A stretch of 64,000 nt of DNA from a virus. Its lineage: Duplodnaviria; Heunggongvirae; Uroviricota; Caudoviricetes. Of the stretch, positions 20,307-60,082 are shown one piece after another; the stretch's first letter is position 1; every line of letters starts with the position of its first letter. Made by a program: the position numbers and the translations under genes. Where the stretch lies: the IMG/VR virus record IMGVR_UViG_2799113093_000010; one strand, 5' to 3'. The notes under the pieces are model-generated. The model was not told the origin of the DNA, made no database searches, and saw only the letters and a list, made by a program, of their open reading frames with translations.

Positions 20307-20712
20307 TTACCGGGGCGCCTTCAGCGTCGTCGGTGTCGTCAGTGTCTCCGTCGAGCGGAGGCTCGGGCGGCTCCGCGTTGCCCGGTCCGCCCGCGGGAAT
20401 GTCGAGTCCGTAGAGCCGGGCCTGCTGGGCGAGAATCCGCCGGCACACTTCCGCCGAGCGGTGGTCCCCGGCCAGCGCCTTCGGGAAGTGCGCTTTGAAC
20501 AGGGCTTCAGTGCGCTCCACGTACACGTCGAACGCCTGATCCACCAGACGATCCCGGCGCCGGGCAGCCTTGGCCATCTCCCGCTTGATGATCGCGTCGA
20601 CACTCGCCACCGACGCCAGATCCACAGCCTCGGCGATCTGCCGATAGGTCGCGCCGGCCACGAACAGCTGCAGGACCTTCGCGTCCCGCTTCGCCCGCTC
20701 CGGCCCCTTCAC
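20269..20712 (-). CDS. terminase small subunit (about 147 aa)
   Basis: GTG at 20712 overlaps the upstream stop (GTGA). HTH-like N-terminus (ATYRQIAEAVDLASVAS) and acidic C-terminus. The upstream 180 aa of the 324-aa track ORF overlap the methylase gene in another frame. Confidence 0.6.
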   Translation of the reverse strand: MKGPERAKRDAKVLQLFVAGATYRQIAEAVDLASVASVDAIIKREMAKAARRRDRLVDQAFDVYVERTEALFKAHFPKALAGDHRSAEVCRRILAQQARLYGLDIPAGGPGNAEPPEPPLDGDTDDTDDAEGAPVSDLAAWRSRQNA

Positions 20713-21950
20713 GCGCCGCCAGCCAACGACACTTCGCGGCCGTCGAGCACCGGCACCACACCGGTGTGCTCCTCGAACCGGCGCGCGATCACATCGGCGT
20801 ACTTCGGGTCCAGCTCCACGCAGAACGCCCGCGCACCGAGGCCCTGCGCCGCGATGAGCGTCGACCCCGACCCGGCGAACGGATCGAACACCACGCCGCC
20901 CCGAGGGCAGGAGTTCGTGAGCATCGCGGCCACGAGAGCGACGGGCTTCATCGTGGGGTGCTGCTCGTTGCGGGCCGGCTTGTCGACCTGGAACACCGTG
21001 GCCTGGCTGTTGTCGCCGAACCAACGCTCGCCGCCGCGCCCCAAACGGCCATCGCCCCCCGGAGTGAATCCGTACAGTATCGGCTCGTGTTTGTAGTGGT
21101 AGTCCGATCGGCCCATGACGATCGTGTTCTTCACCCACACCAAGTTCTGCCGCACCAGCAGCCCGGCGTCGCGCATCGCGCCCTCGAACGTCACCCGCTC
21201 GGTATCGGCGTGCGCGACGTACACCGGCGCCCCGGGCGCGCACACCGCGGCGACCGTCGCGAACGCGTCATCGAGCAGCCCCCGCAGCCCAGCGGCTCCG
21301 TCGTTCTGGATCGTGAGCGCCTTCTTGGTCTTGCCGACGTAATCCACCCCGTATGGGGGGTCCGTCCAGACGCAGTCGGCGCGCACATCGCCGAATAGGC
21401 GCTCCACAACCAGGTCCGTGTCGGTCGACGAGCCCACCAGCAGCCGGTGCGGTCCCAGCTCCCACACCTTGCCCAGCTCGGACACCGGCTCTTCCGGGCT
21501 CGCCGGGACGTCATCGGGATCCGTCAGCGGCGCATCCGGGAACAGGTCGCGCCGCAGCTCCTCCAGATCGGCGTCCGAGTAGCCAGTGCCCTCCAGGTCC
21601 TCCAGCGAGTCCAGGAGCGCGAACAGCTCGTCGTCGTCATAGTCGCCCAGGTCCGCCAACTTGTTATCTGCAGCAACGATCGCCTTCGCACGCTGGTCAT
21701 CGACGTCAACGAACCAGACCGAAACCTCACTCCAGCCGAGTTTGCTGGCAGCCCGCAGCGTGTGGTTACCCGCCAGAACCTCGTTTTGGCGCCCCGTCAG
21801 CGAACCCCGATTGACCACGAGTGGCTTGTACTGGCCGTTCACAGCCAACGACTCCGCGATGGCGTCGATGCGACCGCGCCGAGGGTTGCCCTCAAACAAG
21901 CGCAGATCGGCCACGGACACCATTGCCGCGGAGTTAGCTGTGATCGACAC
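20709..21950 (-). CDS. ParB-like nuclease domain fused to N6/N4 DNA methyltransferase (413 aa)
   Basis: N-terminal ParB/Srx-like region. The C-terminal part carries DPPY (VWTDPPYGVDY) and an AdoMet-binding motif (VVFDPFAGSGSTLIAA). Confidence 0.8.
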   Translation of the reverse strand: MSITANSAAMVSVADLRLFEGNPRRGRIDAIAESLAVNGQYKPLVVNRGSLTGRQNEVLAGNHTLRAASKLGWSEVSVWFVDVDDQRAKAIVAADNKLADLGDYDDDELFALLDSLEDLEGTGYSDADLEELRRDLFPDAPLTDPDDVPASPEEPVSELGKVWELGPHRLLVGSSTDTDLVVERLFGDVRADCVWTDPPYGVDYVGKTKKALTIQNDGAAGLRGLLDDAFATVAAVCAPGAPVYVAHADTERVTFEGAMRDAGLLVRQNLVWVKNTIVMGRSDYHYKHEPILYGFTPGGDGRLGRGGERWFGDNSQATVFQVDKPARNEQHPTMKPVALVAAMLTNSCPRGGVVFDPFAGSGSTLIAAQGLGARAFCVELDPKYADVIARRFEEHTGVVPVLDGREVSLAGGA

Positions 21951-28383: not shown

Positions 28384-28779
28384 TCAGCGACGGCGCTGGG
28401 CGACCGTGTGTAGGGCGAGTAGCGCGCCAGCAAGACCCGGGGCATCGACGATCGGGATCCGCGACGGGAACCCTGCAAGAGCGAGCCGGTTGTCCTGGTC
28501 GATGAACACCTCGCCGTCCGCGCACGGCTGCTCACTCAGCGGCACCCGCACTGACCAGCCTCCGTACCCGTCTGGGTCGATGTTGGGCAGCTGCACCAGC
28601 ACGTAGCCCTCACTGGCGAGCAGCGCCGGCAGGACGGAGGCGATCCGGTCGGCGACCTCGTCGGCCGAGCGGACATGCATGTAGGCCGGAGGGTCGCTGA
28701 TGAAGCGTGGTGTGACGTGGCGGCTCACCAGATCGGGTATGCCTGCGATCAGCCGGGTCAGCACCGCGCGGGCCGTCAT
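28384..28779 (-). CDS. hypothetical protein (131 aa)
   Basis: Coupled (4-nt overlap) immediately downstream of the nucleotidyltransferase gene. Confidence 0.45.
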   Translation of the reverse strand: MTARAVLTRLIAGIPDLVSRHVTPRFISDPPAYMHVRSADEVADRIASVLPALLASEGYVLVQLPNIDPDGYGGWSVRVPLSEQPCADGEVFIDQDNRLALAGFPSRIPIVDAPGLAGALLALHTVAQRRR

Positions 28780-29603
28780 GGACTGGTTGTACTCGCCCCC
28801 ACCGACAGGCCACCGACCTCAGCGGCAGGCGTCGCCCAGTGCTCCGTGTACATGTCAACGAGCCAGTCGTCGACCTTCGCCCAGTTGGCTTCCTCGGGCA
28901 GGTCGGCCGTGTTGACCAGATGCTCAAGGTCGCAGGTGATCTCGTCGAGCCGGTCCATCACCTCACGAAGTGACACTTCGCCAGCCCGGACCCGCAGCAG
29001 ATACTCGCGGTGCTCGGCGAGCATCGGCAGGTTGACCCGACCGTCCCGCATCGCTTCGCATCCCTGCAGCCCGAGGCGGATCGCGTGGTAGGCGTACTTG
29101 GTGTCGAAGCCGTACTGGGCGACCAGCTCGGGCCGGTTGGTATGCCGGTGGTGGGTTCCCTCGATCCCGCCACGCTGGCGGTTCAGGTAACCCAGGAAGC
29201 GCTCGCCGGCTGCCTTCGTCACGAACATGTCCGATGCTGCCTGCAGCTGCTCGCCGGCGCGGGTTCTGGTCACGACCTCCGCGTCCGGGAGCCACAGCAG
29301 CAACAGCACCGTCGGATTGCCTGCGGCGGCCAGCCTTGTCCACTTCCGCAGCGAGTAGATGACCAAGTCGAGGTCACCCGGTCCAGAGCGGGCTCCGTCA
29401 GGCTGCGTGCGGTAGATGTACTGCTCGAACTTCTCCAGGCCGATCACGGCCTCGGCTGGTTCGATGCAGATACCCATCTCGTCGCGGTCATCGTCACCGG
29501 TCGTGACGCCGTGCAGGCCAGAGCCGACCTGCCCGAGCAGGATGGTGTTGGCGACCGCGATCTCCCGGTGCCGTGGTGTTCCGTGCCGCTCTTCGGTGCT
29601 CAT
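28776..29603 (-). CDS. Pol-beta superfamily nucleotidyltransferase (275 aa)
   Basis: N-terminal signature LGQVGSGLHGVTTGDDDRDEMG (GS...DxD) plus a third acidic strand (DLDLVIY) about 40 aa later. Confidence 0.6.
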   Translation of the reverse strand: MSTEERHGTPRHREIAVANTILLGQVGSGLHGVTTGDDDRDEMGICIEPAEAVIGLEKFEQYIYRTQPDGARSGPGDLDLVIYSLRKWTRLAAAGNPTVLLLLWLPDAEVVTRTRAGEQLQAASDMFVTKAAGERFLGYLNRQRGGIEGTHHRHTNRPELVAQYGFDTKYAYHAIRLGLQGCEAMRDGRVNLPMLAEHREYLLRVRAGEVSLREVMDRLDEITCDLEHLVNTADLPEEANWAKVDDWLVDMYTEHWATPAAEVGGLSVGASTTSP

Positions 29604-32108: not shown

Positions 32109-32320
32109 GGACGGTCCTTGACGATCTGGGCGATCAGCTCCGGTGAGCAGCCAACCGCGCCGGCGAGCGACGCGTACGTCCACTCGGATCGCTTCTCGGC
32201 CCACAACTCGCGCACCAGGTCGTTGCGCTGGGTCCGGTGCTGACGCGCCACCTGCGACGAGTCGAACGACATCCGGTGATGCTCGCGGGCCTGCTGAGCA
32301 CGTGGGTCCACCGTCACCAC
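32105..32320 (-). CDS. small helix-turn-helix protein (71 aa)
   Basis: HTH-like segment TYASLAGAVGCSPELIAQIV. Confidence 0.45.
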   Translation of the reverse strand: MVTVDPRAQQAREHHRMSFDSSQVARQHRTQRNDLVRELWAEKRSEWTYASLAGAVGCSPELIAQIVKDRP

Positions 32321-33042
32321 CCGAACTCGGTGGGCACGTACACCTGGGTTTGGGAGCGTATGAAATCCGACTCGCGGGGCGGCTGGTCGGACTCAGTAAC
32401 CCGGATCAGGAGCCGCCAACCGCGGGTCTTGGCTGCAGTCGCGGTGTGGATGTTCCACCAGTCCCACGACAGCCACTGGCCGGGCGCGGCGTCCAGGAAG
32501 TCGTGATCGTCCAGGTGCTCGGCGGCGTTCACCGCCTCCGACATCTCGCGGTACAGGCCCGAGTCCTCGCCGTGCTCCAGCCCGATGATGAACGGGCAGC
32601 GCATGAACCGGGTTGGGCAGTCGTTACCGACATGGATGGTGTGGAACCGCGGCGCATACCCCCGAGACTCCAGGTCCGCTTGAATCGACAGCGACGGCGC
32701 ACCCGTGTTCGAGGCGCTCGCCGACATCAGGCTTGCCTCGTGGTCCGTATCGCCGACCCGGCGTGGCACGCCGTCGGTGTGCCAGCCCGGGATCGCAGGG
32801 ATGAACCCGGGCAGCAGCATCGACACCTTCGTATCGACATGCACGTGCTTGTGGTCGCCGACGATCGGTGCCTGCTCCAGACAGCGGCGCACCGCGGGTC
32901 CCCCGAACAGAAGCGCGTTCTCCAGGCTCGCGCGCTCCAAGTTCGGGGTCGCCGGGATGCACATCAGGTCGCGGAACCCGAACACGTCGGTAACCGACGG
33001 TCCGAGTTCCACCGGCGTGACGTTGAACGTGTACGACTTCAC
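32314..33042 (-). CDS. putative Fe(II)/2-oxoglutarate dioxygenase (PhyH-like), paralog A (about 242 aa)
   Basis: GTG at 33042 overlaps the Ro60 stop (GTGA). Motifs GWHTDG (HxD), distal FHTIHVGN, and an Arg about 9 aa later. Paralogous to 42247..42954. Confidence 0.45.
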   Translation of the reverse strand: MKSYTFNVTPVELGPSVTDVFGFRDLMCIPATPNLERASLENALLFGGPAVRRCLEQAPIVGDHKHVHVDTKVSMLLPGFIPAIPGWHTDGVPRRVGDTDHEASLMSASASNTGAPSLSIQADLESRGYAPRFHTIHVGNDCPTRFMRCPFIIGLEHGEDSGLYREMSEAVNAAEHLDDHDFLDAAPGQWLSWDWWNIHTATAAKTRGWRLLIRVTESDQPPRESDFIRSQTQVYVPTEFGW

Positions 33043-34766
33043 AGGTCGCCGCGGGAGAAATCGGCCAGCAGCTGCGGCACTGCGGAGTCGAACCCGGACA
33101 CGTCGAGCTGCCCCGGGTCGGTCGGATCCGCGATGCTGTTGCCGGTCGCGGTCATCGCGACAACCACCAGGCGTGCATCGATGCCCATGGTGTCCCGGTA
33201 CTCGCGGAGCGCCTGGTGCGGATGCATCGACCCGTAGAACGTCTCGTTGTCGGTGTAGACGTGGAACGTGTCGATCTCGATCCGGTTCTTGCGCGCCCAG
33301 ATCATCGGCAGCGCGCAGTCGGTGTTCCCGAAGTCCAGCTCGCCGGTGTAGCGGCACACGTCGTCGAGACGCCGGCGCGGGGTGATGTCCAGCGGCGCCA
33401 CCGCCGTCGCATACCCGCGGAAGTGGCCGGTGCGCGAATGCACGTAGCTGCCAGGCCCGGCGGTGAAGCCGATGATCTGGTGATCCGTCTCGACGTTGGC
33501 AGTGACCAGCGCCAGGGCGGCTGCGGCCTCGCGGCACGACACCGGCAGCCCGGACACCGACCGCGTCATCGACCCGGACACGTCCAGAGCCAGCAGCGTC
33601 CGCTTACCGGCAGGCTCGACCGCGCCATAGGCGTTGTAGAACGCGGCATCGAGCGCGTCGACGATCCGCGCCACCGGCATCCAAGTGGAGTCGCCGCGCG
33701 CCGAGTGGCCCGACGCGTAGGTGCGCAGCGCCACCAGCGCGTTGATCGGATGCACGCGGCCCTTCCGCAGCCGCTCGGAGTCCTGCAGCTGCGCGGCGAC
33801 CTTGTTCCCGATGGTGCCGGCGAGGACACCGAGGCGAGTCAGGCGCGGCAGCTGCCGCATCAGCGCAGTCTGGGGCAGACCGTGCTCGATCAGCGCCTCC
33901 CACACCTCCGGCTTGGTGAGCGCGGCGTCGGGCAGCGCCTCCCACGGAAGAGCGTTGCCACGCTTGATGATCTTCACCCAGTCCCGCGCCGTGGTGGCAC
34001 GCTGCGCGTCCTCGAAGTCGGCGATGATCGCCAGCGGGTGGCCGTCGCTCAGCTCGATATCGGGCAGCTTGGGGCGTGCGGTGTTCCGGTCGCCGGCCTT
34101 CAGCTCGTCCGGGTTCAGCTCGCGGACCTTGTCGGCGTAGTCGTTGAGGCCCTTGCCGACAGCCCAGTTGAACGCGAGGCGCCGCGCCGGGTCCTTCGTG
34201 ACGGGCGAGGAGAGCCGCAGCAGGTCGCGGTGCATCCATCCCTCGCGCTGCCGGTACTTGACCAGCTGGTAGGCGACACGGTCGACGCCCTTGTCCAGAT
34301 ACCAGGAGCCGACCGCACGCTTCATCGCCGGACCCCAGCCACGGAACTGCTCCATGTACTTCACGAACAGGTACAGGTGGGTGCCGGTGCGCGCCACGCT
34401 GGGCAGAGCGGCAGCCGCGGCGCGGCGTCCCTCCACGTCATCGGAGGCTGCGGCGACCGCGAGCGCGAACAGCGCCGGGTTCTGCTTCGGCGCCCGGCCA
34501 GCGACCGACACCTCCACGATGTGCTGCACCAGCCGCACCGGATCCGCGGCGGCGGCACGGAACACCACCTCGGCGTTCTCCCGAGTCAGCTCGGCCGCGT
34601 TGGTGTAGTAGGTGCCGCCGTCGGTACCCAGCGTCAGGAACCGGTGCAGCCTCACCTCGTCGGACACCGCGAACGCGAACCCGCCGGCCGCGTTCTTCAC
34701 CTGCCGGGGGTCCGCCTTCACCGTCTGCGCGGTGCGGCGGGTGCTGATCGTCGAAAGAACGTCCAT
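33039..34766 (-). CDS. rsr: Ro60 ortholog (Rsr): TROVE domain plus C-terminal vWA domain (about 575 aa)
   Basis: TROVE-like N-terminal region (MDVLSTISTRRTAQTVKADPRQVKNAAGGFAFAV..., HLYLFVKYMEQFRGWG). vWA MIDAS motif LALDVSGSMT. RBS CAGAGGAGA before the ATG at 34766. The 115-aa upstream extension in the track ORF overlaps the ncRNA array and is rejected. Confidence 0.8.
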   Translation of the reverse strand: MDVLSTISTRRTAQTVKADPRQVKNAAGGFAFAVSDEVRLHRFLTLGTDGGTYYTNAAELTRENAEVVFRAAAADPVRLVQHIVEVSVAGRAPKQNPALFALAVAAASDDVEGRRAAAAALPSVARTGTHLYLFVKYMEQFRGWGPAMKRAVGSWYLDKGVDRVAYQLVKYRQREGWMHRDLLRLSSPVTKDPARRLAFNWAVGKGLNDYADKVRELNPDELKAGDRNTARPKLPDIELSDGHPLAIIADFEDAQRATTARDWVKIIKRGNALPWEALPDAALTKPEVWEALIEHGLPQTALMRQLPRLTRLGVLAGTIGNKVAAQLQDSERLRKGRVHPINALVALRTYASGHSARGDSTWMPVARIVDALDAAFYNAYGAVEPAGKRTLLALDVSGSMTRSVSGLPVSCREAAAALALVTANVETDHQIIGFTAGPGSYVHSRTGHFRGYATAVAPLDITPRRRLDDVCRYTGELDFGNTDCALPMIWARKNRIEIDTFHVYTDNETFYGSMHPHQALREYRDTMGIDARLVVVAMTATGNSIADPTDPGQLDVSGFDSAVPQLLADFSRGDL

Positions 34767-34793
34767 CGGTGTCTCCTCTGAAATGCGGGTGGG

Positions 34794-34869
34794 GGCAGCG
34801 CGGGCGTGTGAATGACAGCCGGGTTGGTTCCGTTCGAAGGGGATAACCGACCGTCGTCCTGCTCGCGCC
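34794..34869 (-). ncRNA. truncated Y-RNA-like unit (YrlB-like; Ro-binding helix motifs without tRNA-like domain)
   Basis: Carries the GAGCAGGACGACGGUCGGUUAUCC and CACACGCCC motifs shared with the three units upstream. It lacks a T-arm and D-arm. It lies immediately 5' of the rsr RBS. Confidence 0.35.
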
Positions 34870-34902
34870 ACCCCCAACTGGGGCTGTGGCTCGTGTCGCG
34901 AG

Positions 34903-35047
34903 GCGGTGTGGGCGTGTGTTTGCCGACCGGTGTTTTTAGGCGTCCTAGGCCGCTGGACGACGGGGCCGCTATGCAGTCCCGGCAGGATTCGAACCTGCGT
35001 ATCCCGCTCCCGATGCGATAACCGATTGAGCGTCCTGCTCACACCGC
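34903..35047 (-). ncRNA. Y-RNA-like tRNA-mimic ncRNA, unit 3 (YrlA-like)
   Basis: Read on the minus strand it shows, in order: a 5' helix strand with GAGCAGGACGC...CGGUUAUC; a T-arm GCAGG-UUCGAAU-CCUGC; a capped acceptor-like hairpin; a D-arm GUCC-AGCGGCCUA-GGAC; and a 3' strand (CACCGGUCGG...CACACGCCCACACCGC) complementary to the 5' end. Confidence 0.5.
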
Positions 35048-35063
35048 TACGCGACGTTTGTGG

Positions 35064-35205
35064 GGTTGATGCGGGCGTGTGTGTGCTGACCGGGGTTAAG
35101 TGCTCTGCCAACTGAGCTACAGCCGCGAAGCGACTGACGGGACTCGAACCCGCGACCTCTCCATTAGAAGTGGATAACCGACCTGCGTCCTGCTCGCATC
35201 AAACC
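35064..35205 (-). ncRNA. Y-RNA-like tRNA-mimic ncRNA, unit 2 (YrlA-like)
   Basis: T-arm CGCGGG-UUCGAGU-CCCG. Acceptor-like 7-bp hairpin CAGUCGC-UUCG-GCGGCUG with a UUCG tetraloop. D-arm UAGCUCAGUUGGCAGAGCA. Its termini pair (GGUUUGAUGCG / CGCAUCAACC). It carries the conserved GCAGGUCGGUUAUCC motif. Confidence 0.55.
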
Positions 35206-35222
35206 GCTATTGAGTTGTCTGA

Positions 35223-35358
35223 GGATGGCGTGGGCGTGTGGAGTGCTGACCGGTGTTTGATCATTGCTCTGCCAGTTGAGCTATACCCCGCGAGCGGGGT
35301 AGCGGGATTCGAACCTGCGACGGTGATAACCGACCTGCGTTCTGCTCACGCCATCCGC
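35223..35358 (-). ncRNA. Y-RNA-like tRNA-mimic ncRNA, unit 1 (YrlA-like)
   Basis: T-arm GCAGG-UUCGAAU-CCCGC. Perfect 7-bp acceptor-like hairpin UACCCCG-CUCG-CGGGGUA. D-arm UAGCUCAACUGGCAGAGCA. Terminal helix GGAUGGCGUG / CACGCCAUCC. GGUCGG / CCGGUC pairs with G-U wobbles next to GUUAUC. Confidence 0.55.
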
Positions 35359-35442
35359 TATGAAGTTGTGTCAGGGTTCGTGCGTCAGTTAACTCATCGA
35401 GGTACCTTCCGCGTGTTCTCTGGGGTGTTGCTTACCTGTCCA

Positions 35443-35470
35443 ACTGTATGGATTTACAGCCTGGTGGCAA
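35443..35470 (-). promoter_or_regulatory. candidate sigma-A-type promoter for the Y-RNA/rsr transcript (TTGCCA-N16-TACAGT on the minus strand)
   Basis: The -35 element TTGCCA is the reverse complement of 35465-35470. The -10 element TACAGT is the reverse complement of 35443-35448. It lies in a 175-bp noncoding stretch upstream of unit 1. Confidence 0.3.
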
Positions 35471-58476: not shown

Positions 58477-58824
58477 ATGTTTGAGTTGACGTTGACCGGA
58501 TCCGGGCATACTGTTCGTGATATGACCACTTTGATGGAAACGTGGCCCGAGCCAGATCGGGCAACGATTGGTGAGCGTCTACGCGCTTACATGGGGGTGC
58601 ACAAGATCAGCCGCGCGAAGCTCTCGCTCGCAAGCGGAATCTCCCGCACGGCTTTGGGGCTCAAACTTGACGGACTCAGCCCCTACACAACTGAGGACTG
58701 CAAGGCGATCGGCGACGCTCTCAACAAGAGCTGGTTTTGGGTATTGACCGGCCAAGAGCTGCCCGCACCAGACCCCGGCGACGGTGGCCCCGGAGTGCCC
58801 GGTAACTCCGAATCAGAAGGTTAG
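58477..58824 (+). CDS. CI-like XRE-family repressor (115 aa; start may be the internal Met at 58522)
   Basis: HTH segment IGERLRAYMGVHKISRAKLSLASGISRTALGLKLDG. Divergent from the Cro-like gene. Its 3' end runs into attP. Confidence 0.6.
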   Translation: MFELTLTGSGHTVRDMTTLMETWPEPDRATIGERLRAYMGVHKISRAKLSLASGISRTALGLKLDGLSPYTTEDCKAIGDALNKSWFWVLTGQELPAPDPGDGGPGVPGNSESEG

Positions 58825-58850
58825 GGGTTCGAATCCCTTCGGGCGCACCA
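58806..58850 (+). other. attP common core: 3' 45 nt of a tRNA (anticodon loop to CCA; anticodon CCG, tRNA-Arg-like)
   Basis: Sequence CUCCGAA (anticodon loop with CCG), UCAGA, variable loop AGGUU, T-arm AGGGG-UUCGAAU-CCCUU, acceptor 3' strand CGGGCGC, then A and CCA. There is no matching 5' acceptor strand upstream. It lies 69 bp from the integrase gene's 3' end. Confidence 0.6.
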
Positions 58851-58918: not shown

Positions 58919-60082
58919 TCAGGCGCTACTTTCCCAGTACTGCTCAAGGGCGCCGCGAGCATCCGGTCCCTGGGTCTGCCGCTGTAGGTAGTGAGCCTCG
59001 GTGGTCGCCAGCTTGGCGTGGGACAGCTGCTGCTGGGCCTTGTCCGGGCCGTGGGCGTCGCGGATGACCGTGGCAACTGTGCGCCGGAAGCTGTGCGGCG
59101 TGACCCAGTTCAGTTCTTCGGGCAGGGCCGCGCGGAGGGCTCGCCGTAGGTTGGCCAGGCTTACCCATCCGCCATCTCGATTGACGAACACGGGTCCGTC
59201 CATACCCGACTCCCCGATGAGTGCTGTCAGCGTCTCTACACCGAACTTGGGCAAGATCACGGTGTGCGCGGGGGCATCGGACTTCCGCTCTTCCTGACGA
59301 TGTAGGGGCTTTCCTGCGATGCGACCGTGGTCGATCAAGGTACCGGTGATGGTGAGCGTCGGCGGGTCGGCAAGAAGGTCTACATCGCACCACCGAGTGG
59401 CAAGTACTTCATTCGGGCGGCACCCGGTGGCTACGAGCAGGTCTACGAACGCGGGCAGAAGGCGTCCAGGGCGCGGCCCCGGCGCCTTCCGCTCGGCGTA
59501 CTCGCGAACGGCGGCACGGATCTGTCTAAGCTCTGTCGCGTCGGCTGAGCGAGGCTTTCTCCTGCCGGTGCCGACTGTCTTCGTCTCGCGTATCGGATTG
59601 ACGGGCACCACGTCGAACCGGCACGCCATTGAGTACATCCCCGTCAGCACCATCCGCAGCCGTTTGGCCTGACTCTTAGATGCCATGCCTTGGATGTAGT
59701 TGTGAGCGTCTTGAGTCTCCAGCTCGATGACTCGCAAGGATCCCAGCTGCGCTGCGCCGTGCGTCCTCCAGACCGCCCGATACTGATCAACCGTCTGTTG
59801 CTTAACGCCGTCCTCGGCAGCCTTTGTTTCGACCCATAGGTCGAACAGGTCGCCGAGGGCGGTTTTTTCGTTCACCAGCTGACCAGTTTTCGGTGTCCGG
59901 CGTTTCGCCAAGTGCCGTTGTAGGACGCGTCGAGCATCCTCGGCTGACTTCTCGCTGGACCGCTCTACCCGGCGTCGCTTGCCGTCCGAATCGCGTACGT
60001 AGGTGCTCGCGAAAAACTTTCCACCAGAGGACCGTTGGGTAATGCGGCCATGCTCGCCGGGGCGGAGACGTTCTCTAGGCAT
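58919..60082 (-). CDS. int: tyrosine integrase (387 aa)
   Basis: Catalytic-domain motifs TPHSFRRTVAT and LSHAKLATTEAHY (R...HxxR...Y). Confidence 0.9.
   Translation of the reverse strand: MPRERLRPGEHGRITQRSSGGKFFASTYVRDSDGKRRRVERSSEKSAEDARRVLQRHLAKRRTPKTGQLVNEKTALGDLFDLWVETKAAEDGVKQQTVDQYRAVWRTHGAAQLGSLRVIELETQDAHNYIQGMASKSQAKRLRMVLTGMYSMACRFDVVPVNPIRETKTVGTGRRKPRSADATELRQIRAAVREYAERKAPGPRPGRLLPAFVDLLVATGCRPNEVLATRWCDVDLLADPPTLTITGTLIDHGRIAGKPLHRQEERKSDAPAHTVILPKFGVETLTALIGESGMDGPVFVNRDGGWVSLANLRRALRAALPEELNWVTPHSFRRTVATVIRDAHGPDKAQQQLSHAKLATTEAHYLQRQTQGPDARGALEQYWESSA

What the first reader, a model, noticed from the sequence alone, without database searches (positions are those of the whole stretch)
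33039..35375. Phage-borne Ro60 (Rsr) gene preceded by a tandem array of three tRNA-mimic Y-RNA-like ncRNAs
The 575-aa protein has a TROVE region and a C-terminal vWA MIDAS motif (LALDVSGSMT), so it looks like a Ro60 ortholog. The 600 bp immediately 5' of its RBS, on the same strand, contain three about 140-nt modules. Each has a near-consensus T-arm (GGUUCGAAUCC type) and a D-arm (UAGCUCAGUUGGCAGAGCA type). These are arranged as a circular permutation of a tRNA: T-arm, then acceptor-like stem closed by a tetraloop, then D-arm. A long helix formed by the module termini stands where the anticodon stem would be. This architecture matches what has been described for bacterial YrlA-type Y RNAs that Ro60 binds. 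Three full modules in a row, plus a fourth truncated one, all upstream of rsr inside a temperate phage, is an unusual dosage and arrangement. The function may be RNA quality control or decay, possibly with host exoribonuclease, or tRNA mimicry during infection.
Basis: partly seen in the sequence, partly recalled or inferred. Interest (0 to 1): 0.8.

Follow-up and report, generated by a model that had tools for sequence, protein, structure and literature searches.

The report
Phage Ro60 gene with four Y RNAs
A temperate mycobacterial-type phage carries a gene for the ring-shaped RNA-binding protein Ro60, preceded by four small tRNA-mimicking "Y RNA" genes; this partnership is already known, and related prophages carry similar multi-gene arrays of up to seven.

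Summary
The 565 nt upstream on the same strand hold four Y-RNA units: three tRNA-like ones (135, 142 and 150 nt) and one 82-nt hairpin. A covariance model built only from other loci finds these four units and no other significant match in 64 kb (E 1e-32 to 6e-12). The proposed fold is backed by covariation: 92.8% of cells pair against 37-46% when partners are slid, and 20 of 38 pairs show compensatory changes.

This is a known kind. YrlA-type Y RNAs next to Ro60 were reported in 254 bacteria and 22 phages (Chen 2014). M. smegmatis YrlA and YrlB are cut from one precursor upstream of rsr.

Three corrections apply:
- Unit 4 belongs to a conserved short class and is not a truncated copy.
- Units 2 and 3 also carry an anticodon-arm-like hairpin.
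- The array is not unusual among relatives. Chromosomal loci have 1-3 units and related prophages have 2-7, with unit types in a conserved order.

I found no paper describing such arrays. The function (a Ro60-Y RNA particle that recruits host exoribonuclease) is inferred, not shown.

The parts
33039..34766 (-). Ro60/Rsr gene (575 aa): TROVE ring plus a C-terminal vWA domain with MIDAS motif DVSGS. ATG at 34766-34764, GAGGAG ribosome-binding site at 34778-34773.
   Evidence: Pfam TROVE 3.6e-49 and vWA_Ro60 3.4e-60. PDB 1yvp 5e-102 and 2nvo 5e-101. Translation, sequence.
35222..35356 (-). Y RNA unit 1 (135 nt), tRNA-like with no anticodon-like hairpin. Terminal stem 35347-35356 pairs with 35223-35232. 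T-arm 35302-35318, closed acceptor-like stem 35284-35301 (7 bp, CUCG loop), D-arm 35266-35281.
   Evidence: R2 104.5 bits, E 2.2e-23. Rfam YrlA 34.3 bits, full length. Coordinates. It has an A.C mismatch in the T-stem and an uncompensated A15.C48.
35063..35204 (-). Y RNA unit 2 (142 nt), counterpart of M. smegmatis YrlA. Anticodon-like hairpin 35160-35174 (loop CUUCUAA), T-arm 35137-35153, 7-bp acceptor-like stem 35120-35136, D-arm 35102-35117.
   Evidence: R2 143.4 bits, E 9.6e-33. Rfam YrlA 39.2 bits. 89-92% identical to unit 2 of L018, L019 and L028. Coordinates.
34900..35049 (-). Y RNA unit 3 (150 nt). Hairpin 35004-35018 (loop AUCGGGA), T-arm 34982-34998, 9-position acceptor-like stem with an A.C mismatch 34961-34981, divergent D-arm GUCC/GGAC 34942-34958.
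   Evidence: R2 96.9 bits, E 1.5e-21. Rfam YrlA 20.5 bits. 79% identical to unit 3 of L018 and L028, which have the same A.C position in the stem.
34792..34873 (-). Y RNA unit 4 (82 nt). Short hairpin class that keeps the Ro-binding helices but has no T or D arm. It ends 25 nt before the Ro start codon.
   Evidence: R1 55.8 bits although it was not in that model's seed. R2 56.9 bits, E 6.3e-12. In the short-unit family, 17 pairs are predicted and 9 show compensatory changes.
35443..35470 (-). Candidate promoter (TTGCCA, 16 nt, TACAGT) about 90 nt upstream of unit 1.
   Evidence: Consensus scan: 1 site found against 0.3 +/- 0.6 in shuffles. No terminator-like site on the minus strand between this site and the Ro gene. 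Weak evidence; inferred.
32314..33042 (-). Downstream gene (242 aa, function unknown). Its GTG start overlaps the Ro TGA stop (cTGTGAag), which suggests co-translation.
   Evidence: Sequence, translation. phrog_1843 3.6e-63, no Pfam match.
28776..29603 (-). RlaP-family RNA-repair nucleotidyltransferase, same strand, 3.4 kb downstream of Ro. Possibly functionally linked.
   Evidence: PF10127 1.7e-33. A homolog (68% aa identity) also lies downstream of Ro in L018, L019 and L028.

Best explanation
This is a phage-encoded Ro60-Y RNA module.

Proposed steps:
1. A single transcript starts upstream of unit 1 and runs through the four Y-RNA units into the Ro60 gene (inferred).
2. Host RNases cut out four small RNAs of about 80-150 nt. 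This is inferred from M. smegmatis, where YrlA and YrlB upstream of rsr come from one precursor and YrlA is cleaved by RNase P in its 7-bp acceptor-like stem.
3. Each RNA presents the same bulged terminal helix (5' GAGCAGGACG ... 3' CACACGCC) as the docking site for the phage Ro60 ring (inferred from Ro-Y RNA structures and footprinting in other species).
4. Three of the RNAs display a circularly permuted tRNA-like domain. The fourth is a plain hairpin.
5. By analogy with the D. radiodurans, S. Typhimurium and Thermus phage phiLo systems, the Y RNA tethers Ro60 to a host 3'-5' exoribonuclease (PNPase). That would redirect structured-RNA decay or quality control during infection. Different Y RNAs may offer different effector-binding modules.

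What is shown here: the identity of the protein, the presence and fold of the four RNAs, and their conservation with Ro60. What is inferred: transcription, processing, Ro binding and PNPase recruitment.
For: - Ro60 identity.
- Four units found by a leave-window-out covariance model, and no other significant match in 64 kb. Independent Rfam YrlA matches.
- Fold supported on 20 MAFFT-aligned units. 92.8% of cells pair against 82.4 +/- 0.7 in shuffles and 37-46% when slid. 20 of 38 pairs have double changes, and all 7 acceptor-like stem pairs covary. RNAalifold independently recovers the terminal, T, acceptor-like and D helices.
- The Levitt 15:48 tertiary pair covaries: G:C in 14 units, A:U in 3.
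- Linkage to Ro60: all 135 model hits in 38 Ro60 loci lie on the Ro60 strand, and 134 are immediately upstream. The last unit ends 18-35 nt before the start codon.
- Units are orthologous across prophages and more similar to their positional counterparts (79-92%) than to each other (42-73%).
- No minus-strand terminator between the units and Ro.
[quoted passage not shown] Phage phiLo Ro60 binds two upstream Y-like RNAs and forms a complex with host PNPase (PMC12135203).
Against: - No expression, processing or binding data exist for this locus.
- Rfam YrlA scores (39.2, 34.3, 20.5 bits) are below the gathering score of 69.
- NCBIfam Rsr scores 494 bits against a cutoff of 900.
- The published 5' motif GNCGAAN0-1G is not matched exactly. 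Here it reads GCAG(G/A)ACG.
- Unit 1 has two defects in the tRNA fold: an A.C in the T-stem and A15.C48.
- Single-sequence folding energies are not distinguishable from shuffles for U2-U4.
- The promoter call is a weak consensus match.
- PNPase recruitment is known for only a few systems. The PNPase-binding element of mycobacterial Y RNAs is undefined.
Confidence: 0.75

Rival explanations
1. Counter-defence or RNA-repair platform. The array is a repertoire of tRNA mimics. These act as decoys for host tRNA-targeting nucleases, or as scaffolds that bring damaged tRNAs to the nearby RlaP nucleotidyltransferase. Ro60 serves as the platform. The module would not primarily work by tethering PNPase.
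For: - U2, U3 and 10 other distinct units have a hairpin with a 3-bp covarying stem and an invariably 7-nt loop. U sits at loop position 2 in 12 of 12, and a purine at position 6 in 11 of 12. A 5-nt AGGUC-type linker follows, so the element resembles an anticodon arm.
- The 'anticodon' triplets differ between units and between orthologs.
- D-arms of different tRNA classes occur within the arrays.
- An RlaP RNA-repair nucleotidyltransferase lies on the same strand downstream of Ro here and in L018, L019 and L028.
- RlaP adds 1-2 nt to damaged RNA 3' ends (PMC12776372). Ro/TROVE has been described as an RNA-repair platform with a tRNA-like partner in phages (PMC7824862).
Against: - No RNA ligase, polynucleotide kinase or RtcB was found in the ORFs scanned around the locus.
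- RlaP is absent within 4 kb of Ro in the M. abscessus prophages that have the longest arrays.
- ARAGORN accepts the un-permuted units even when the hairpin is shuffled (176 of 200 and 72 of 200), so that call is not specific evidence for an anticodon arm.
- Nothing here shows nuclease targeting.
Confidence: 0.15
2. The region is mainly a structured cis-acting 5' leader of the Ro60 mRNA. For example, Ro60 could bind its own leader near the ribosome-binding site for autoregulation. It would not be a set of processed, trans-acting small RNAs.
For: - The units directly abut the ribosome-binding site. Unit 4 ends 14 nt before GAGGAG.
- No terminator separates them from the gene.
- The last unit always ends 18-35 nt from the start codon across loci.
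Against: - In M. smegmatis the homologous upstream RNAs accumulate as discrete Rsr-bound species (PMC4201824).
- Each unit has its own closing terminal stem with covariation.
- Seven-unit arrays span about 1 kb, which is hard to explain as a leader.
- The two roles are not mutually exclusive.
Confidence: 0.07
3. The units are decayed tRNA genes. They would be remnants of a phage tRNA array with no relation to Ro60.
For: - T- and D-arms are near tRNA consensus.
- GenBank annotates the ortholog of unit 2 in prophiGD43A-5 as tRNA-Thr.
- Sparky has real tRNA genes directly upstream of its Y RNAs.
Against: - ARAGORN finds no tRNA in the window, and the Rfam tRNA model scores 20.7 bits against a threshold of 29.
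- The arm order is always permuted.
- The non-tRNA terminal helices are conserved and covary.
- Units are strictly linked to Ro60 on the same strand in 38 loci.
- The short class has no tRNA parts at all and is still conserved.
Confidence: 0.03

Closest known systems
Mycobacterium smegmatis YrlA and YrlB with Rsr (Chen et al. 2014, RNA 20:1715)
   Same: - Y RNAs lie directly upstream of rsr on the same strand.
- Same YrlA layout: 5' strand, GGUUAYC, hairpin, T-arm, 7-bp closed acceptor-like stem, D-arm, 3' CACACGCCC.
- Unit 2 nearly matches the published YrlA probe regions.
- A shorter Y RNA lies closest to the gene.
   Different: - Four units here instead of two.
- The short unit here lacks the T-arm that M. 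smegmatis-type YrlB has (L002 and L010 second units).
- The Ro-binding 5' motif is GAGCAGGACG here and GAGCCGGAYG in host-type units.
- The element is phage-borne.
Salmonella Typhimurium YrlA (Rfam RF02553; tRNA-like domain solved by crystallography)
   Same: - Circularly permuted tRNA-like domain in the order T-arm, acceptor-like stem-loop, D-arm.
- YUAY element.
- The termini pair to form the Ro60-binding helix.
- Unit 1, which has no hairpin, aligns to the full model.
   Different: - Scores reach only 20-39 bits against a gathering score of 69.
- Units 2 and 3 have a longer anticodon-like hairpin where Salmonella has a short V region.
- The acceptor-like stem is 7-9 bp here.
- The locus is not in an rtcBA operon under RtcR control.
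Cluster C1 mycobacteriophage YrlA (ET08/Bxz1 type) and other phage Ro60 loci
   Same: Phage-encoded Ro60 with an upstream YrlA. 355 phage records carry a Ro-like protein. The C1-type locus L036 has one tRNA-like unit and one short unit.
   Different: - C1 phages are large lytic myoviruses with 2 units. This is a temperate siphovirus-type prophage with 4.
- Ro60 is only about 55% identical.
Thermus phage phiLo Ro60 with Yrl1 and Yrl2 (NAR 2025, PMC12135203)
   Same: - Phage Ro60 with multiple Y-like RNAs immediately upstream.
- The proposed mechanism is capture of host PNPase in a Ro60-Y RNA-PNPase complex.
   Different: - The phiLo RNAs were defined by a CGAA motif and a stem-bulge-stem shape, and no tRNA-like domain was reported.
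- Two RNAs there, four here.
- Biochemistry exists for phiLo and none for this locus.
Deinococcus radiodurans Rsr-Yrn1-PNPase (RYPER)
   Same: A Ro60 ring is tethered by a Y RNA to an exoribonuclease. Several small RNAs are encoded upstream of rsr.
   Different: Yrn1 has a different arm order and lacks a clear D-arm (Chen 2014). No PNPase link was tested here.

Membership tests
Ro60 / Rsr (TROVE protein) | TROVE (HEAT-repeat ring) domain | tested here: met
   PF05731 3.6e-49, residues 23-346.
Ro60 / Rsr (TROVE protein) | C-terminal vWA domain with MIDAS motif (DxSxS) | tested here: met
   PF25045 vWA_Ro60 3.4e-60. DVSGS is present in the translation.
Ro60 / Rsr (TROVE protein) | Full-length homology to structurally solved Ro60 and Rsr | tested here: met
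   1yvp (X. laevis) 5.2e-102 over residues 14-571. 2nvo (D. radiodurans Rsr) 5e-101.
Ro60 / Rsr (TROVE protein) | NCBIfam equivalog NF041674 (RNA-bind_Rsr) above its curated cutoff | tested here: not met
   493.8 bits against a cutoff of 900, although the alignment is full length and E is 5e-148. The protein is a divergent phage ortholog.
YrlA-type Y RNA | Rfam RF02553 score at or above the gathering threshold (69 bits) | tested here: not met
   39.2, 34.3 and 20.5 bits. Validated-type relatives also fail: host-type L002 46.2, C1 phage L036 36.1, Sparky 36.6.
YrlA-type Y RNA | Encoded within 4 kb of a Ro60 ortholog on the same strand (criterion of Chen 2014) | tested here: met
   The units lie 25-590 nt upstream of the Ro start on the same strand. 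The same holds for 135 of 135 hits in 38 loci.
YrlA-type Y RNA | GNCGAAN0-1G motif near the 5' end (proposed Ro60 contact) | tested here: not met
   All four units read GCAG(G/A)ACG, which departs at two specified positions. Host-type units read GCCGGAYG. C1 phage and YrlB-type units read GCCGAA(A/G)G. The position and context of the motif are conserved.
YrlA-type Y RNA | 5' and 3' ends pair into a helix that carries the Ro-binding site | tested here: met
   Terminal helix: 10 pairs, 93% paired, 4 with double changes. Inner helix: 9 pairs, 87% paired, 3 with double changes. The short class behaves the same way.
YrlA-type Y RNA | Conserved T-arm and D-arm with an intervening acceptor-like stem-loop, plus YUAY before the V region | tested here: met
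   Met for U1-U3. T helix 99% paired, acceptor-like helix 96% paired with 7 of 7 pairs covarying, D helix 99% paired. UUAU is present in all four units. U4 lacks T and D arms and is not YrlA-type.
YrlA-type Y RNA | tRNA-like tertiary Levitt pair 15:48 with compensatory G:C or A:U | tested here: inconclusive
   Across 18 distinct units: G:C 14, A:U 3, A:C 1. The single exception is window U1. U2 and U3 have G:C.
YrlA-type Y RNA | Bound by Ro60/Rsr in vivo; tRNA-type modifications; RNase P cleavage or CCA addition | not testable with these tools
   This needs immunoprecipitation, Northern blots and modification mapping. It has been shown only for M. smegmatis and S. Typhimurium.
Short Y RNA class (YrlB / Yrn2-like hairpins) | Long hairpin with the Ro-binding helices and a small apical loop, encoded next to a tRNA-like Y RNA | tested here: met
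   U4 aligned with 10 short units from other loci gives 17 pairs, 9 with compensatory changes. Unlike M. smegmatis-type YrlB, it has no T-arm.
tRNA | Detected as a tRNA gene in native arm order | tested here: not met
   ARAGORN finds 0 genes in the window. The Rfam tRNA model gives 20.7 bits against 29. Units are called tRNA only after in-silico un-permutation, and that call tolerates a shuffled hairpin.

The most novel reading that the evidence does not exclude
Mycobacterial prophages maintain ordered arrays of 4-7 distinct Y RNAs. Several of these are complete circularly permuted tRNAs that include an anticodon-arm mimic, with different 'anticodons' and different D-arm classes. Under this reading the arrays work with a co-evolved phage Ro60 (altered docking motif GAGCAGGACG) and, in some lineages, an RlaP nucleotidyltransferase. 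Together they would form a counter-defence system that decoys host tRNA-targeting nucleases or repairs their damage, and would not be a general RNA-decay adaptor.
Probability: 0.12. Interest if true: 0.8.

Novelty: new member of a known kind. Interest (0 to 1): 0.4.

Why it matters
Ro60-Y RNA particles are conserved from bacteria to humans, and Ro60 is a major lupus and Sjogren autoantigen. What the tRNA-like domain of bacterial Y RNAs does is still unknown.

This locus adds little on its own, because phage Ro60 with YrlA has been known since 2014. The comparison it prompted is more useful:
- Temperate mycobacterial prophages, including those of the pathogen M. abscessus, carry ordered arrays of up to seven different Y RNAs.
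- Chromosomal rsr loci carry about two.
- The tRNA-like parts within an array are diversified.

That gives a natural set of variants for asking what each Y RNA recruits and why a phage would need several. It also flags a recurring annotation error: one ortholog of unit 2 is deposited as tRNA-Thr.

Tried and rejected
- ARAGORN and Rfam at gathering thresholds on the whole window found nothing. The locus becomes visible only with relaxed Rfam thresholds or a clade-specific model.
- Single-sequence MFE folding recovers the cloverleaf parts only partly, and the z-scores are weak. I did not use it as evidence.
- In-silico un-permutation followed by ARAGORN calls U2 as tRNA-Arg(tct) and U3 as tRNA-Pro(cgg). 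The shuffle control shows the call survives scrambling of the hairpin in 88% and 36% of trials. I rejected it as evidence for an anticodon arm. The comparative loop and stem pattern is the real evidence.
- I looked for RNA ligase, kinase or RtcB partners in ORFs from 20.7 to 38.9 kb. Only RlaP turned up.
- I searched for a published description of multi-unit Y-RNA arrays in mycobacterial prophages and found none in the held library. The supplementary tables of Chen 2014, which list loci with several YrlAs, are not held. The 2020 Annual Review is not held either. Prior mention therefore cannot be excluded.
- No close DNA match to the window exists in the phage collection. The best is prophiGD43A-5 at 78% identity over 15% of a 24-kb query. 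The exact Ro protein occurs on 8 Logan contigs.

Full report
**1. The observation**

On the minus strand, window:33039-34766 is an ATG-started ORF of 575 codons. A GAGGAG ribosome-binding site sits at 34778-34773. The protein matches Pfam TROVE (3.6e-49) and the Ro60-specific vWA domain (3.4e-60). It matches the solved structures of Xenopus Ro60 (5e-102) and Deinococcus Rsr (5e-101) over its whole length, and it contains the MIDAS sequence LALDVSGSM. It is a Ro60 ortholog. Its NCBIfam Rsr score (494 bits) is below the strict equivalog cutoff of 900, which fits a divergent phage copy.

**2. The four upstream units**

Upstream on the same strand, four units share a 5' block AGCAG(G/A)ACG..CGGTTATC and a 3' block CCGG(T/C)..CACACGCCC.
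- U1 35222-35356 (135 nt).
- U2 35063-35204 (142 nt).
- U3 34900-35049 (150 nt).
- U4 34792-34873 (82 nt).

U1-U3 contain, in order, a T-arm (GGUUCGAAUCC type), a closed 7-9-bp acceptor-like stem, UA or UC, and a D-arm. Spacers between units are 13-26 nt, and U4 ends 25 nt before the Ro start codon.

**3. Is it more than chance?**

ARAGORN finds no tRNA in the window, and no Rfam family reaches its gathering score. With relaxed thresholds the Rfam YrlA model hits U2 (39.2 bits, E 5.8e-7), U1 (34.3 bits, full length, E 1.6e-5) and U3 (20.5 bits, E 0.15).

I then collected Ro60 loci from elsewhere: 16 from one-per-species genomes, 21 from IMG/VR, and prophiGD43A-5. A covariance model built only from 22 units of those loci, with RNAalifold's own consensus structure, finds U2, U1, U3 and U4 in the 64-kb window at E 9.6e-33, 2.2e-23, 1.5e-21 and 6.3e-12. 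The only other match has E 0.76. The units are real, and there are four of them.

**4. Structure**

Single-sequence folding is not convincing (z-scores -1.97 to -0.28). Comparison with other loci is.

I aligned 20 units with MAFFT, so the alignment was not fitted to any structure, and named a 38-pair structure. It comprises the terminal stem, a G-C clamp, the inner helix, the hairpin, the T-arm, the acceptor-like stem and the D-arm.

| Measure | Observed | Control |
|---|---|---|
| Cells forming a standard pair | 92.8% | 82.4 +/- 0.7 in shuffles; 37-46% when 3' partners are slid |
| Pairs with changes on both sides | 20 | 12.0 +/- 1.8 in shuffles |
| Acceptor-like stem pairs that covary | 7 of 7 | - |

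RNAalifold independently predicts the terminal, T, acceptor-like and D helices. The tRNA Levitt pair (15:48) covaries as Chen et al. described: G:C in 14 distinct units and A:U in 3.

The short class to which U4 belongs is also a conserved structure, with 17 pairs of which 9 have compensatory changes. U4 is therefore a distinct short Y RNA and not a truncated module.

**5.

- U2 and U3 carry a hairpin between GGUUAUC and the T-arm. Chen et al. call it the V arm.
- Across 12 distinct units this hairpin has a 3-bp stem that covaries: CCA/UGG, CGC/GCG, CUC/GAG, CGA/UCG, UCC/GGG.
- Its loop is always 7 nt. U sits at position 2 in 12 of 12 and a purine at position 6 in 11 of 12. A 5-nt AGGUC-type linker follows.
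- This pattern looks like an anticodon arm plus variable loop. U2 and U3 are then complete permuted tRNAs, with the Ro-binding helix emerging between the D-arm and the anticodon-like arm. Only U1 fits the simpler picture in which the terminal helix stands in for the anticodon stem.
- When I un-permuted the units in silico, ARAGORN called tRNA-Arg(tct) for U2 and tRNA-Pro(cgg) for U3, and nothing for U1. My control showed the call usually survives shuffling of the hairpin (176 of 200 and 72 of 200). I do not count it as evidence.
- U3 has a divergent D-arm (GUCC/GGAC with loop AGCGGCCUA) and a 9-position acceptor-like stem. The stem has an A.C mismatch at the same place as in its orthologs.
- U1 has an A.C in the T-stem and an uncompensated A15.C48.

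**6. Context**

The window is a temperate siphovirus-type phage or prophage, with nearly all genes on the minus strand.
- Structural and replication genes: minor tail, tape measure, major head, portal, large terminase, replication initiator, and a RecT-like region.
- A tyrosine integrase lies at 58919-60082.
- A tRNA 3'-fragment sits next to the integrase at about 58792-58850. It is probably the attachment core.

The Ro60 module sits among early or middle genes. The gene after Ro overlaps its stop codon (phrog_1843, function unknown). An RlaP RNA-repair nucleotidyltransferase lies 3.4 kb downstream on the same strand (PF10127, 1.7e-33). It is also found downstream of Ro in the three closest five-unit prophages. 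No RNA ligase or kinase was found nearby. A weak sigma-70-like site lies about 90 nt upstream of U1, and no minus-strand terminator separates the units from Ro.

**7. Is the array unusual?**

Model R1 gave 135 hits in 38 Ro60 loci. All were on the Ro60 strand, and all but one were immediately upstream.

| Loci | Units per locus |
|---|---|
| 16 loci from one-per-species genomes (L002-L017; mostly Mycolicibacterium/Mycobacterium, plus Nocardia, Actinomyces and MAGs) | 1-3, usually 2 (a YrlA plus a YrlB with a T-arm, as in M. smegmatis) |
| Sparky, a cluster C1 phage, and three other viral contigs | 2 |
| L034, L035 | 4 |
| L018, L019, L028, L033 | 5 |
| M. abscessus-type prophages, including prophiGD43A-5 | 5-7 |

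Four units is therefore more than at host loci and mid-range for temperate mycobacterial prophages.

The units are not recent duplicates. U2, U3 and U4 are 89-92%, 79% and 79% identical to the positional counterparts in L018, L019 and L028. They are only 42-73% identical to each other. The viral loci are closely related to one another, so these counts are not independent samples.

**8. Comparison with what is known**

- Chen et al. 2014 (PMC4201824) reported 355 putative YrlAs near Ro60 in 254 bacteria and 22 phages. They noted loci with several copies. They also showed that M. smegmatis Rsr binds YrlA (147 nt) and YrlB, that both are processed from one precursor upstream of rsr, and that YrlA is cleaved by RNase P and receives CCA.
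- U2 is nearly identical to the published M. smegmatis YrlA probe regions.
- A 2025 study of Thermus phage phiLo showed a phage Ro60 binding two upstream Y-like RNAs and assembling with host PNPase.
- The Rfam threshold failure is not informative. A host-type YrlA scores 46.2 bits and a C1-phage YrlA 36.1 bits against the same cutoff of 69.
- One defining feature is not met exactly. The 5' motif GNCGAAN0-1G reads GCAG(G/A)ACG in all units of this clade, against GCCGGAYG in host-type units. This could reflect co-evolution with the phage Ro60.

I file the RNAs as YrlA-type (U1-U3) and short-class (U4) Y RNAs on the strength of architecture, covariation and linkage. Binding and processing remain untested.

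**9. Mechanism and verdict**

The most likely mechanism has four steps:
1. The array and the Ro60 gene are co-transcribed.
2. Host RNases process the transcript into four small RNAs.
3. Each RNA docks on the phage Ro60 through the conserved bulged helix.
4. The Y RNAs recruit a host exoribonuclease, or gate access to the Ro60 cavity, and so remodel structured-RNA turnover during infection.

Identity and architecture are shown here. The rest is inferred by homology.

The main rival (about 0.15) is a tRNA-decoy or RNA-repair role linked to RlaP.

Novelty: this is a new member of a known kind. The recurring ordered arrays of up to seven diversified units in prophages are a modest extension, and I could not find them described in the papers I could search. 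Interest 0.4.

Noticed in passing
L001:5996-6074 (Mycobacterium phage prophiGD43A-5, MW584167, gene 51): The GenBank record annotates a tRNA-Thr(tgt) here. It is really the 5' half of the Y-RNA unit orthologous to window U2 (Ro-binding strand, anticodon-like hairpin, T-arm). This is a likely recurring misannotation in Ro60-bearing phages.
   Followed up: partly
L020-L029, L037, L001 (M. abscessus-type prophages), about 1 kb upstream of Ro60: These prophages carry arrays of 5-7 Y-RNA units in a conserved order. The arrays include types absent from the window: a unit with T-arm and acceptor-like stem but no D-arm, and a unit with a tRNA-Leu/Tyr-like 3-bp D-stem (GCAGAGCGGCCUAAUGC).
   Followed up: partly
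window:28776-29603 (-): An RlaP-family RNA-repair nucleotidyltransferase (PF10127, 1.7e-33) lies 3.4 kb downstream of Ro60 on the same strand. The same linkage occurs in L018, L019 and L028, with no RNA ligase nearby.
   Followed up: partly
window:24346-24843 (-): This ORF has an Acb2/Tad1 hairpin domain (PF24729, 3.9e-22). It is a candidate sponge for cyclic-nucleotide immune signals (anti-CBASS/anti-Thoeris).
   Followed up: no
window:58787-58893 (+), next to integrase 58919-60082 (-): A tRNA 3'-fragment-like sequence (anticodon arm, variable loop, T-arm, ...gggcgcacca) sits beside the tyrosine integrase. It is probably the attachment-site core. G+C also drops after about 58 kb.
   Followed up: partly
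window:26704-27501 (+) and 20709-21950 (-): A Dam-like D12 N6-adenine methyltransferase lies on the opposite strand to almost everything else. A ParB-domain/DNA methyltransferase fusion lies just before the small-terminase/HNH-like ORF and large terminase gene.
   Followed up: no
L030:3299-3550 (Mycobacterium phage Sparky): Genuine tRNA genes (Rfam tRNA 62.5 and 57.3 bits, plus a tRNA-Sec-like hit just below that model's threshold) lie directly upstream of Sparky's two Y RNAs and Ro60. A tRNA cluster and the Y RNAs are contiguous there.
   Followed up: no
window:35222-35356 (-), unit 1: U1 is the only one of 18 distinct units with an uncompensated Levitt position (A15.C48). It also has an A.C mismatch in the T-stem. 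Its terminal stem matches the first unit of L018, L019 and L028, but its interior is different. It may be a decaying or remodelled unit.
   Followed up: partly
window:33039-33042 (-): The Ro60 stop codon overlaps the GTG start of the next gene (cTGTGAag). That gene belongs to phrog_1843, of unknown function. It was not found within 4 kb downstream of Ro60 in any of the 38 related loci searched.
   Followed up: partly
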